In this document: in pieces, positions 14,701 through 17,700 of the stretch | How positions within the stretch are numbered: position 1 is the first letter of the stretch | Layout: each line of letters opens with the position of its first letter | Assembly: GCF_022846255.1 (NCBI RefSeq) | Contig: NZ_AP025682.1 | Reading direction: 5' to 3' (one strand) | Source: Escherichia coli | GTDB taxonomy: Bacteria; Pseudomonadota; Gammaproteobacteria; Enterobacterales; Enterobacteriaceae | DNA length: 64,000 nucleotides | Position numbers: made by a program

Positions 14701-17700
14701 GAAGTTTTCCTGCCTGCTCAGGTGCCGGATTCAGAGCTGGATTCGTGGATGGAGTCCCGGATTTACCCGGTGATGAGCGATATCCCGGCACTGTCAGATT
14801 TGATCACCAGTATGGTGGCCAGCGGCTATGACTACCGGCGCGACGATGATGCGGGCCTGTGGAGTTCAGCCGATCTGACTTATGTCATTACCTATGAAAT
14901 GTGAGGACGCTATGCCTGTACCAAATCCTACAATGCCGGTGAAAGGTGCCGGGACCACCCTGTGGGTTTATAAGGGGAGCGGTGACCCTTATGCGAACCC
15001 GCTTTCAGACGTTGACTGGTCGCGTCTGGCAAAAGTTAAAGACCTGACGCCCGGCGAACTGACCGCTGAGTCCTATGACGACAGCTATCTCGATGATGAA
15101 GATGCAGACTGGACTGCGACCGGGCAGGGGCAGAAATCTGCCGGAGATACCAGCTTCACGCTGGCGTGGATGCCCGGAGAGCAGGGGCAGCAGGCGCTGC
15201 TGGCGTGGTTTAATGAAGGTGATATCCGTGCCTATAAAATCCGCTTCCCGAACGGCACGGTCGATGTGTTCCGTGGCTGGGTCAGCAGTATCGGTAAGGC
15301 GGTGACGGCGAAGGAAGTGATTACCCGCACGGTGAAGGTCACCAATGTGGGACGTCCGTCGATGGCAGAAGATCGCAGCACGGTGACGGCGACAACCGGC
15401 ATGACGGTGACACCCGCCAGTGCTTCCGTAGTGAAAGGGCAGAGCACCACGCTGACCGTGGCATTCCAGCCGGAGGGCGCAACCGACAAGAGCTTCCGTG
15501 CGGTGTCTGCGGATAAAACAAAAGCCACCGTGTCGGTCAGTGGTATGACCATCACCGTGAAAGGTGTTGCTGCAGGCAAGGTCAACATTCCGGTCGTATC
15601 CGGTAATGGTGAACTTGCTGCGGTTGCAGAAATCAACGTCACCGCCAGTTAATCCGGAGAGTCAGCGATGTTCCTGAAAACCGAATCATTTGAACATAAC
15701 GGTGTGACCGTCACGCTTTCTGAACTGTCAGCCCTGCAGCGTATTGAGCATCTCGCCCTGATGAAACGGCAGGCAGAACAGGCGGAGTCAGACAGCAACC
15801 GGAAGTTTACTGTGGAAGACGCCATCAGAACCGGCGCGTTTCTGGTGGCGATGTCCCTGTGGCATAACCATCCGAAGAAGACAAAGCTGCCTTCCATGAA
15901 TGAAGCCGTTAAACAGATTGAGCGGGAAGTGCTTACCACCTGGCCCACAGAGGCAATTTCTCATGCTGAAAACGTGGTGTACCGGCTGTCCGGTATGTAT
16001 GAGTTTGTGGTGAATGATGCTCCTGAACAGGCAGAGGACGCCGGGCCTGCAGAGCCTGTTTCTGCGGGAAAGTGTTCGACGGTGAGCTGAGTTTTGCCCT
16101 GAAACTGGCGCGCGAGATGGGGCGACCCGACTGGCGTGCCATGCTTGCCGGGATGTCATCCACGGAGTATGCCGACTGGCACCGCTTTTACAGTACCCAT
16201 TATTTTCATGATGTTCTGCTGGATATGCACTTTTCCGGGCTGACGTACACCGTACTCAGCCTGTTTTTCAGCGATCCGGATATGCATCCGCTGGATTTCA
16301 GTCTGCTGAACCGGCGCGAGGCTGACGAAGAGCCTGAAGATGATGTGCTGATGCAGAAAGCGGCAGGGCTTGCCGGAGGTGTCCGCTTTGGCCCGGACGG
16401 GAATGAAGTTATCCCCGCTTCCCCGGATGTGGCGGACATGACGGAGGATGACGTAATGCTGATGACAGTATCAGAAGGGATCGCAGGAGGAGTCCGGTAT
16501 GGCTGAACCGGTAGGCGATCTGGTCGTTGATTTGAGTCTGGATGCGGCCAGATTTGACGAGCAGATGGCCAGAGTCAGGCGTCATTTTTCCGGTACGGAA
16601 AGTGATGCGAAAAAAACAGCGGCAGTCGTTGAACAGTCGCTGAGCCGACAGGCACTGGCTGCACAGAAAGCGGGGATTTCCGTCGGGCAGTATAAAGCTG
16701 CCATGCGTATGCTGCCTGCGCAGTTCACCGACGTGGCCACGCAGCTTGCAGGCGGGCAAAGTCCGTGGCTGATCCTGCTGCAACAGGGGGGGCAGGTGAA
16801 GGACTCCTTCGGCGGGATGATCCCCATGTTCAGGGGGCTTGCCGGTGCGATCACCCTGCCGATGGTCGGGGCCACCTCGCTGGCGGTGGCGACCGGTGCG
16901 CTGGCGTATGCCTGGTATCAGGGCAACTCAACCCTGTCCGATTTCAACAAAACGCTGGTCCTTTCCGGCAATCAGTCGGGTCTGACGGCAGATCGCATGC
17001 TGGTCCTGTCCAGAGCCGGGCAGGCGGCAGGGCTGACGTTTAACCAGACCAGCGAGTCACTCAGCGCACTGGTTAAGGCGGGAGTAAGCGGTGAGGCTCA
17101 GATTGCATCCATCAGCCAGAGTGTGGCGCGTTTCTCCTCTGCATCCGGCGTGGAGGTGGACAAGGTCGCTGAAGCCTTCGGGAAGCTGACCACAGACCCG
17201 ACGTCAGGGCTGACAGCGATGGCACGCCAGTTCCATAACGTGACGACGGAGCAGATTGCGTATGTTGCTCAGTTGCAGCGTTCCGGCGATGAAGCCGGGG
17301 CATTGCAGGCGGCGAACGAGGCCGCGACGAAAGGGTTTGATGACCAGACCCGCCGCCTGAAAGAGAACATGGGTACGCTGGAGACCTGGGCAGACAGGAC
17401 AGCGCGGGCATTCAAATCCATGTGGGATGCGGTGCTGGATATTGGTCGTCCTGATACCGCGCAGGAGATGCTGATTAAGGCAGAGGCTGCGTTTAAGAAA
17501 GCGGACGACATCTGGAGTCTGCGCAAGGATGATTATTTTGTTAACGATGAAGCGCGGGCGCGTTACTGGGATGATCGTGAAAAGGCCCGTCTTGCGCTTG
17601 AAGCCGCGAGAAAGAAGGCTGAGCAGCAGAGTCAACAGGACAAAAATGCGCAGCAGCAGAGCGATACTGAAGCGTCACGGCTGAAATATACCGAAGAGGC

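What the first reader, a model, noticed from the sequence alone, without database searches (positions are those of the whole stretch)
16060..16090. Conserved G-T programmed -1 ribosomal frameshift site
The slippery heptamer G GGA AAG (16066-16072) lies 18 nt before the G stop, and the -1 frame continues for 144 codons with gpT sequence. This is the classical arrangement by which gpT is made only as a G-T fusion at low frequency.
Basis: partly seen in the sequence, partly recalled or inferred. Interest (0 to 1): 0.25.

Follow-up and report, generated by a model that had tools for sequence, protein, structure and literature searches.

The report
Lambda G-T tail-chaperone frameshift site
This is the textbook programmed -1 ribosomal frameshift site of phage lambda's tail-assembly genes G and T, sitting unchanged in a lambda-like prophage of E. 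coli, so it is real and correctly read but already well known.

Summary
G (15668-16090, 140 aa) carries G_GGA_AAG at 16066-16072 in the X_XXY_YYZ phase. Five codons (15 nt) separate it from the TGA stop at 16088-16090. The -1 frame then runs 144 codons to 16504-16506 and overlaps the start of tape-measure gene H.

G and T score as equivalogs of lambda gpG and gpT. The locus lies between V and H inside an 18.6-kb block that is 96.5% identical to lambda Nu1-J. G-T is 98.2% identical to lambda, with columns 401-461 of the alignment (~60 nt around the slip site) base-for-base the same and the T part identical in protein.

A slippery heptamer sits at the same place in 73 of 74 IMG/VR relatives with a complete G ORF. 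Diverged phages use AAAAAAG or GGAAAAG there.

The mechanism is therefore lambda's: tandem tRNA-Gly/tRNA-Lys slippage gives about 4% of a 279-aa G-T fusion. This is already known.

Two side notes:
- A 69-nt RNA structure is predicted 8 nt downstream (16081-16149). It is more stable than shuffled or synonymously recoded controls and is kept in relatives. It could be a modest stimulator; this is untested, and a 2014 survey had already flagged it.
- This prophage has a 1-nt deletion in nu1 and an amber codon in C, so it is probably head-defective. All tail genes are intact.

The parts
15668..16090 (+). Gene G (tail assembly chaperone gpG, 140 aa; stop TGA at 16088-16090)
   Evidence: ORF list. 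PF06894 at 1e-58. TIGR01674 equivalog at 212 bits. 95.7% aa identity to lambda gpG, with 6 substitutions.
16066..16072 (+). Slippery heptamer G_GGA_AAG. The 0-frame reads GGA-AAG (Gly-Lys); the -1 frame reads GGG-AAA (Gly-Lys).
   Evidence: Identical to lambda 10109-10115. Conserved at this position in 73 of 74 relatives with a complete G ORF. Annotated as the slip site in the N15 and LLS records.
16072..16506 (+). T reading frame (-1 relative to G). It has 144 codons from GTG 16072, a stop at 16504-16506, and overlaps the H start ATG at 16499.
   Evidence: PF06223. TIGR01715 equivalog. 100% aa identity to lambda T.
15668..16506 (+). Coding span of the predicted 279-aa G-T fusion (G residues 1-135 plus 144 T residues; junction ...PVSAGK|VFDGELSF...)
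   Evidence: Conceptual translation. Same length and junction as the lambda fusion built the same way.
16081..16149 (+). Predicted RNA structure 8 nt 3' of the heptamer. A 7-bp closing stem (16081-16087 with 16143-16149) encloses a long hairpin (about 16107-16140). This is a tentative modulator, not an established part of the signal.
   Evidence: MFE -34 kcal/mol; z -4.56 against dinucleotide shuffles. z -2.3 (p 0.012) against synonymous recoding. In the lowest 0.45% of 69-nt windows in the late region. Closing stem and long hairpin are part of the predicted minimum-energy fold in 6 diverged relatives. 97.8% of cells are paired in the inner helix, and one GC->AU compensatory pair is seen.
14912..15652 (+). 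Gene V (major tail tube protein), upstream neighbour that defines the V-G-T-H synteny
   Evidence: PF16461 at 2e-70. 97% aa identity to lambda V.
16499..19060 (+). Gene H (tape measure protein, 853 aa), downstream neighbour
   Evidence: PF06791 and PF09718. 95.9% aa identity to lambda H over its full length.

Best explanation
This is the lambda-type G-T programmed -1 ribosomal frameshift signal of a lambda-like prophage.

Ribosomes translating the late mRNA read G in the 0 frame. Most of them terminate at TGA 16088-16090 and yield the 140-aa chaperone gpG. The slip happens when GGA (tRNA-Gly) and AAG (tRNA-Lys, anticodon mnm5s2UUU) occupy the P and A sites at 16067-16072. A few percent of ribosomes then slip one base 5', re-pairing on GGG-AAA. 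They continue from GTG 16072 through 144 T codons and make a 279-aa G-T fusion.

The gpG part, in both gpG and gpGT, binds the tape-measure protein H. The T part binds the tail tube protein V. The roughly 30:1 ratio that tail assembly needs is fixed by the slip frequency.

What was shown here: the heptamer, its phase, both ORFs, their homology, the synteny, near-identity to lambda, and conservation of the site.

What is inferred from lambda experiments and was not measured on this sequence: the slip itself, its frequency of about 4%, and the protein roles.
For: - Phase and ORF geometry are as described.
- G and T pass the curated equivalog cutoffs.
- V-G-T-H synteny is present, and window 5976-24579 is collinear with lambda 13-18633 at 96.5%.
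- G-T DNA is 98.2% identical to lambda and 99% to phage 434. The ~60 nt around the slip site (alignment columns 401-461) are identical to lambda, and the T protein is identical.
- Position is conserved while the sequence varies. GGGAAAG is used in lambda and PhiR12_1, AAAAAAG in VT1-Sakai, L087 and L088, and GGAAAAG in N15, mEp213, LLS and Kp4865-4. Apart from Kp4865-4, whose G stop is a TAG only 3 nt after the heptamer, all sit 15 nt before an AGC-TGA stop, although G is only about 50% identical in protein.
- 73 of 74 IMG/VR loci with a complete G ORF carry a canonical heptamer there.
- Literature: lambda gpGT depends on a shift at GGGAAAG, with the 0 frame kept about 96% of the time, and the rate is sensitive to tRNA-Lys U34 thiolation (PMC3296357). 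The ratio is 30:1 and the G and T domains have the roles stated above (PMC5009743). G_GGA_AAG is among the most shift-prone heptamers in E. coli (PMC4066793).
Against: - Nothing was measured on this sequence.
- RefSeq/PGAP and the lambda reference record annotate T as a separate CDS starting at the GTG inside the heptamer. Taken literally, that implies independent initiation.
- The host prophage carries a 1-nt deletion in nu1 and an amber codon in C. The element may therefore be defective and the site may currently be under relaxed selection.
Confidence: 0.95

Rival explanations
1. T is an ordinary gene translated on its own from GTG 16072 (or ATG 16117), as the two-CDS database annotation implies, and the heptamer is incidental.
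For: RefSeq annotates 'phage tail assembly protein T' as a stand-alone 144-aa CDS beginning at this GTG, both in lambda and in E. coli genomes.
Against: - The GTG is the last base of the heptamer plus two more. The only purine-rich stretch upstream (GGGAAA) abuts it with no spacer, so no Shine-Dalgarno sequence lies at a workable distance (my reading of the sequence).
- The -1 frame has no other start with a Shine-Dalgarno sequence.
- In relatives the codon at this position is GTC, GCA, GCC or GCG, which are not start codons, yet T is conserved.
- Several records annotate a joined CDS or a slip site.
- The lambda literature states that gpGT expression depends on the shift.
Confidence: 0.02
2. 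The frame change is made by RNA polymerase slippage (a 1-nt deletion in the mRNA at the A run) rather than by the ribosome.
For: The site contains a short homopolymer. Relatives with AAAAAAG have a 6-A run.
Against: - Here the run is only GGG plus AAA. From general knowledge, transcriptional slippage needs longer runs (about 7-9).
- The conserved feature is the X_XXY_YYZ phase relative to G, not run length. GGGAAAG, AAAAAAG and GGAAAAG all keep the A_AAG A-site codon.
- The frequency responds to tRNA-Lys modification (PMC3296357), which points to the ribosome.
Confidence: 0.01
3. The signal is intact but is a relic. The prophage is defective, so the site has no present role in this genome.
For: - nu1 has a 1-nt deletion (CCAGGAACT -> CCAGGACT, about 6391), which splits it into two frames.
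- Gene C has CAG -> TAG at 11084-11086.
Against: - All eleven tail genes Z through J are full length, with no stop or frame break, and T is 100% identical to lambda.
- From general knowledge, lambda tails assemble independently of heads.
- The two lesions could be sequencing errors.
- This rival concerns current use, not what the element is or how it works.
Confidence: 0.3

Closest known systems
Phage lambda G / G-T programmed -1 frameshift (Levin, Hendrix & Casjens 1993; lambda 10109-10115)
   Same: Same heptamer, same phase and same 15-nt distance to the same TGA. The ~60 nt around the slip site and the T protein are identical. V-G-T-H synteny is the same. Overall DNA identity is 98.2%.
   Different: There are six amino-acid substitutions in G (Q70K, Q73K, M74L, Q85R, N116D, T121A) and two synonymous changes in T. 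The site resides in a prophage next to tRNA-Arg(CCT), with a different integrase and late-regulatory region from lambda.
Conserved tail assembly chaperone frameshift of long-tailed dsDNA phages (Xu, Hendrix & Duda 2004, Mol Cell 16:11)
   Same: Two overlapping ORFs lie between the major tail and tape-measure genes. The second is reached by a low-frequency frameshift near the end of the first.
   Different: This is not a distant analogue but the founding member's own sequence family. Other members (N15, mEp213, VT1-Sakai) use GGAAAAG or AAAAAAG at the homologous position.
E. coli dnaX and IS911/IS3 -1 frameshift signals (A_AAA_AAG with SD and hairpin or pseudoknot stimulators)
   Same: The A-site codon is A_AAG, read by the single shift-prone tRNA-Lys(UUU). 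A structure is predicted 8 nt downstream.
   Different: Efficiency is far lower: about 4% against about 50% for dnaX (the dnaX figure is from general knowledge). No SD-like element lies 6-17 nt upstream; the nearest, AGAGGA at 16033-16038, is 27 nt away. [quoted passage not shown]

Membership tests
Lambda-type G/G-T tail assembly chaperone -1 PRF | Upstream ORF is a gpG homologue | tested here: met
   PF06894 at 1e-58. TIGR01674 equivalog at 212 bits against a cutoff of 74.
Lambda-type G/G-T tail assembly chaperone -1 PRF | Overlapping ORF in the -1 frame is a gpT homologue | tested here: met
   PF06223 at 2e-14. TIGR01715 equivalog at 189 bits against a cutoff of 77. 100% identity to lambda T.
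Lambda-type G/G-T tail assembly chaperone -1 PRF | Position between the major tail protein gene and the tape-measure gene | tested here: met
   V is at 14912-15652 and H at 16499-19060.
Lambda-type G/G-T tail assembly chaperone -1 PRF | In-phase X_XXY_YYZ slippery heptamer near the 3' end of G, inside the G/T overlap | tested here: met
   G_GGA_AAG at 16066-16072. It is the only in-phase heptamer in G.
Lambda-type G/G-T tail assembly chaperone -1 PRF | Slip site conserved at the homologous position in diverged relatives | tested here: met
   73 of 74 IMG/VR loci, plus N15, mEp213, LLS, VT1-Sakai and PhiR12_1.
Lambda-type G/G-T tail assembly chaperone -1 PRF | T has no translation start of its own | tested here: inconclusive
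   No spaced SD lies before GTG 16072. The homologous codon is a non-start (GTC, GCA, GCC or GCG) in relatives. Absence of initiation cannot be proven from sequence.
Lambda-type G/G-T tail assembly chaperone -1 PRF | A G-T fusion protein is actually made at a few percent of gpG | not testable with these tools
   Established for lambda, whose signal is identical over the ~60 nt around the slip site. Not measured for this sequence.
Stimulator-dependent bacterial -1 PRF (dnaX / IS3-family type) | SD-like element 6-17 nt upstream of the heptamer | tested here: not met
   None in 16049-16060. The nearest, AGAGGA at 16033-16038, is 27 nt upstream. Sharma 2014 Table S4 also scores SD = N for the gpG cluster.
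Stimulator-dependent bacterial -1 PRF (dnaX / IS3-family type) | Stable, conserved RNA structure 5-9 nt downstream that raises the shift frequency | tested here: inconclusive
   A structure is predicted 8 nt downstream and is kept in relatives. Covariation rests on one clade, and synonymous-site conservation is not significant against the rest of T (p 0.12). Its effect on frequency is untested.

The most novel reading that the evidence does not exclude
The 69-nt structure predicted at 16081-16149, starting 8 nt after the heptamer and conserved from lambda to N15 and Klebsiella phages, may be a genuine moderate stimulator. On this reading it sets the G:GT ratio, lifting the shift from the roughly 0.3% measured for bare G_GGA_AAG to the roughly 4% seen in lambda. 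That would contradict the review-level statement that the lambda shift needs no stimulatory signal. A 2014 survey flagged a 'downstream structure' for the gpG cluster (Sharma et al., Table S4), but I found no experimental test in the papers I could read.
Probability: 0.3. Interest if true: 0.35.

Novelty: already known. Interest (0 to 1): 0.1.

Why it matters
The finding matters little as a discovery. It is the founding example of tail-chaperone frameshifting, copied almost base for base in an E. coli prophage.

Its practical value is for annotation. G and T should be annotated as G plus a joined G-T CDS with ribosomal slippage at 16072. Current RefSeq records instead list a free-standing 144-aa 'T' starting at a GTG.

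The one open point is whether the conserved downstream RNA fold tunes the G:GT ratio. That ratio is known to be critical for lambda tail assembly and to respond to host tRNA-Lys modification.

Tried and rejected
- **Heptamer enrichment.** GGGAAAG is not over-represented in the window (12 against 7.1 +/- 3.2), so the count alone is no evidence. I replaced it with the ORF-architecture scan.
- **Upstream SD stimulator.** None lies at a functional distance.
- **Folding a span that includes the heptamer (16030-16130).** This gave z +0.48, i.e. nothing. Only the segment starting after the spacer is unusual.
- **Synonymous-site conservation as evidence for the RNA element.** Diversity is lower than in G (p 0.002) but not significantly lower than in the rest of T (p 0.12). 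This is inconclusive and is confounded by mosaic recombination and strong amino-acid conservation.
- **Covariation.** Only three pairs change on both sides. The clearest (columns 16-84, GC->AU) is confined to one clade, so it is effectively one event.
- **Primary papers.** I tried to read Xu 2004 and Xu 2013 by DOI and by PMC id. They are not held. Levin 1993 is likewise known here only through citing papers. My recollection of what Levin et al. found about downstream sequences could not be verified and is not used as evidence.
- **Minus-strand 'candidates' at 51594-51618.** These lie in ORFs antisense to a longer + strand ORF. I set them aside without further checking.

Full report
**1. Observation**

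The sequence at 16040-16100 reads ...GAG CCT GTT TCT GCG GGA AAG TGT TCG ACG GTG AGC TGA... in the frame of an ORF running 15668-16090. A phase-aware script places G_GGA_AAG at 16066-16072. Its first G is the third base of the GCG codon, which is the X_XXY_YYZ phase needed for tandem -1 slippage.

Five sense codons (15 nt) separate the heptamer from the TGA at 16088-16090.

The -1 frame is open from 16027. After the slip the next codon is GTG (16072-16074), and the frame runs 144 codons to a TGA at 16504-16506. That stop overlaps the ATG (16499) of the next gene. The coordinates and the '144 codons' are therefore correct.

**2. More than chance?**

The bare heptamer is not enriched. There are 12 copies in the window on both strands against 7.1 +/- 3.2 in dinucleotide shuffles. 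The architecture, however, is unusual.
- It is the only in-phase XXXYYYZ heptamer in the whole G ORF.
- Of 187 such heptamers on the + strand, it alone has at least 100 open codons upstream, a 0-frame stop within 30 codons and at least 80 open codons in the -1 frame.
- The two minus-strand cases that pass (51594-51618) sit in ORFs antisense to a longer + strand ORF. I set them aside as probably spurious without checking them.

**3. What it is**

The two ORFs match the expected families.
- The upstream ORF matches Pfam PF06894 (lambda tail assembly chaperone G, 1e-58) and the NCBIfam equivalog TIGR01674.
- The -1 ORF matches PF06223 (minor tail protein T) and the equivalog TIGR01715.
- The flanking genes are the major tail tube protein V (PF16461) and the tape-measure protein H (PF06791 and PF09718).

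BLAST against lambda shows that window 5976-24579 is collinear with lambda 13-18633 at 96.5% identity. This covers the entire Nu1-to-J morphogenesis block.

The G-T segment itself is 98.2% identical to lambda 9711-10549 and 99.0% to phage 434. In the three-way alignment, columns 401-461 (~60 nt around the slip site) show no difference from lambda. The conceptual G-T fusion is 279 aa. Its T part is identical to lambda's, and G differs at six residues.

**4. Conservation**

I extracted the end of G from diverged relatives. Every one has a shift-prone heptamer ending in A_AAG, and in all but one it sits five codons before an AGC TGA stop.
- GGGAAAG: lambda, PhiR12_1
- AAAAAAG: VT1-Sakai
- GGAAAAG: N15, mEp213, LLS

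Kp4865-4 also uses GGAAAAG, but its G stop is a TAG only 3 nt after the heptamer, so the 15-nt distance is not invariant. The N15 and LLS GenBank records explicitly annotate these heptamers as -1 slip sites.

The codon following the heptamer in the T frame is GTG, GTC, GCA, GCC or GCG in different phages. Most of these cannot start translation, which argues against an independent T start.

A scan of IMG/VR with a G-T protein alignment returned 80 loci. Of these, 74 have a complete G ORF, and 73 of those carry GGGAAAG (71) or AAAAAAG (2) at the homologous position. The one exception has a truncated G.

**5. Mechanism**

What follows rests on lambda experiments reported in papers I could read.
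- gpGT synthesis depends on a -1 shift at GGGAAAG. The 0 frame is kept about 96% of the time.
- Both Lys codons are read by tRNA-Lys(UUU), and loss of its U34 thiolation raises the shift and lowers phage yield (PMC3296357; PMC7618472).
- The gpG:gpGT ratio is about 30:1. Neither protein is in the virion. The G portions bind the tape measure and the T domain recruits the tube protein (PMC5009743).
- G_GGA_AAG is among the three most shift-prone heptamers in E. coli (PMC4066793).

The signal here is base-identical to lambda's over the ~60 nt around the slip site, so I infer the same behaviour. Nothing was measured on this sequence.

**6. Rivals**

*Independent initiation of T.* The two-CDS annotation in RefSeq implies this. 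It is unlikely because there is no spaced Shine-Dalgarno sequence and relatives have non-start codons at that position.

*Transcriptional slippage.* This is unlikely with a run of only three A's. The conserved property is codon phase, and the frequency responds to tRNA modification.

*A relic site.* A third caveat concerns use rather than identity. This prophage has a 1-nt deletion in nu1 (about 6391) and a CAG->TAG change in C (11084-11086). It may therefore be unable to package DNA or build heads. All tail genes from Z to J are intact.

**7. A side observation: a possible downstream stimulator**

[quoted passage not shown] The sequence nevertheless predicts a structure.
- The 69 nt at 16081-16149 begin 8 nt after the heptamer. 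They fold into a 7-bp closing stem around a long hairpin, with MFE -34 kcal/mol.
- Against dinucleotide shuffles z is -4.56, with 0 of 200 shuffles as stable.
- Against 1000 synonymous recodings that keep the T protein and codon usage, z is -2.3 (p about 0.012). Six relatives give p values of 0.014-0.083.
- The window ranks in the lowest 0.45% of 6178 windows of 69 nt across the late region by MFE, and in the lowest 1.4% after GC correction.
- The closing stem and long hairpin are part of the predicted minimum-energy fold in PhiR12_1, VT1-Sakai, N15, mEp213, Kp4865-4 and L087.
- In a 32-sequence alignment the inner helix is 97.8% paired, and one closing-stem pair switches GC->AU.

The evidence is weak in several respects.
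- That compensatory change is confined to one clade.
- The amino-acid sequence here is highly conserved.
- Synonymous diversity is not significantly lower than in the rest of T (p 0.12).

The idea is also not new. Sharma et al. 2014 scored their gpG cluster (G_GGA_AAG_4) as 'SD: N / downstream structure: Y'. They measured 0.28% for the bare heptamer, 3.8% with the moderate IS911 stimulators and 43% with the IS3 pseudoknot. This leaves room for a contextual boost to lambda's roughly 4%. I rate this reading at about 0.3.

**8. Comparison, novelty and verdict**

This is a member, in effect a copy, of the lambda G/G-T frameshift. All sequence-testable defining features are met. Production of the fusion cannot be tested with these tools, and absence of an independent T start could not be settled from sequence.

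Novelty: already known. Interest is low, at 0.1. The only open question is the predicted downstream RNA element.

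Noticed in passing
window 16081-16149 (+): A 69-nt RNA structure is predicted 8 nt downstream of the slip site. 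It is more stable than shuffled and synonymously recoded controls, and six diverged relatives share its closing stem and long hairpin. It may be a modest frameshift stimulator. Sharma et al. 2014 (Table S4) flagged a downstream structure for this cluster; I found no experimental test.
   Followed up: partly
window ~6391 (nu1, 6153-6697): There is a 1-nt deletion relative to lambda (CCAGGAACT -> CCAGGACT). It splits the small terminase gene nu1 into two frames, with ORFs at 6153-6449 and 6473-6697.
   Followed up: yes
window 11084-11086 (gene C, 10379-11698): Lambda's CAG is TAG here. This amber codon truncates the C protease/scaffold fusion just before the nested Nu3 start at 11093. Together with the nu1 lesion it suggests a head-defective prophage with an intact tail module.
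   Followed up: yes
window 16348-16392 and 16459-16503: The C-terminus of lambda-type T carries its terminal motif twice (LMQKAAGLAGGVRFG and LMTVSEGIAGGVRYG). N15, mEp213, LLS and VT1-Sakai T proteins end after a single copy, so lambda-type T appears to have a C-terminal duplication (alignment A2).
   Followed up: no
window 30434-31873 (+): A 479-aa ORF lies in a low-GC island (36% GC) between the tail-fibre genes and the integrase. It has no hit in Pfam, NCBIfam or PADLOC. By eye its sequence suggests several hydrophobic, possibly membrane-spanning, stretches and an HSHGA motif resembling a hydrolase nucleophile elbow. It may be a prophage cargo ('moron') gene of unknown function.
   Followed up: partly
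window 29045-29713 (-): A class I SAM-methyltransferase-like ORF (222 aa) sits just after the tail fibre assembly gene, with a tfa-like fragment beyond it at 29770-30039. It looks like further accessory cargo.
   Followed up: no
window 32336-33729 (-): A tyrosine integrase (397 aa) is immediately followed by tRNA-Arg(CCT) at 33655-33729. This marks the prophage/chromosome junction. Beyond it lie an FNT-family transporter gene, mlaA, fadL, fadI and fadJ. The integrase sits at the tail-fibre end of the prophage, so the att/int arrangement differs from lambda's.
   Followed up: partly
window 25572-28406 (+): The side tail fibre gene is one uninterrupted 944-aa ORF. In the lambda reference record the homologous region is annotated as two separate 'tail fiber protein' CDSs, orf-401 and orf-314.
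   Followed up: no
window 2077-3234 (-): A porin gene (PF00267, 2.5e-156) is embedded between the rusA-containing late-regulatory region and the lysis genes (lysozyme at 3977-4474, Rz at 4459-4914). The closely related prophage L009 has an ompC-annotated porin between quuD and the lysis genes.
   Followed up: no
window 54874-56940 (-): The host gene mnmC lies in the same window. It carries out the last steps of mnm5s2U34 synthesis on tRNA-Lys(UUU), the tRNA that reads the slippery AAG/AAA. This is a chromosomal coincidence, not a functional linkage.
   Followed up: no
L009 22073-22507; L010 10115-10549: RefSeq/PGAP and the lambda reference record annotate T as a free-standing CDS starting at the GTG inside the heptamer. 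They do not give a joined G-T CDS with ribosomal slippage. This is a systematic annotation shortcoming.
   Followed up: yes
L056 ~1060-1095; L011 601-1440: Two natural variants were seen among IMG/VR relatives. L056 has an in-frame 45-nt deletion between GACTGGC direct repeats, which removes the 3' half of the predicted downstream structure (T is 129 codons). L011 has a truncated 124-aa G that lacks the slip site.
   Followed up: no
L008 715-727 (Klebsiella phage Kp4865-4): In this relative the G stop is a TAG only 3 nt after the GGAAAAG heptamer, rather than 15 nt. The distance to the 0-frame stop is therefore not an invariant part of the signal.
   Followed up: no
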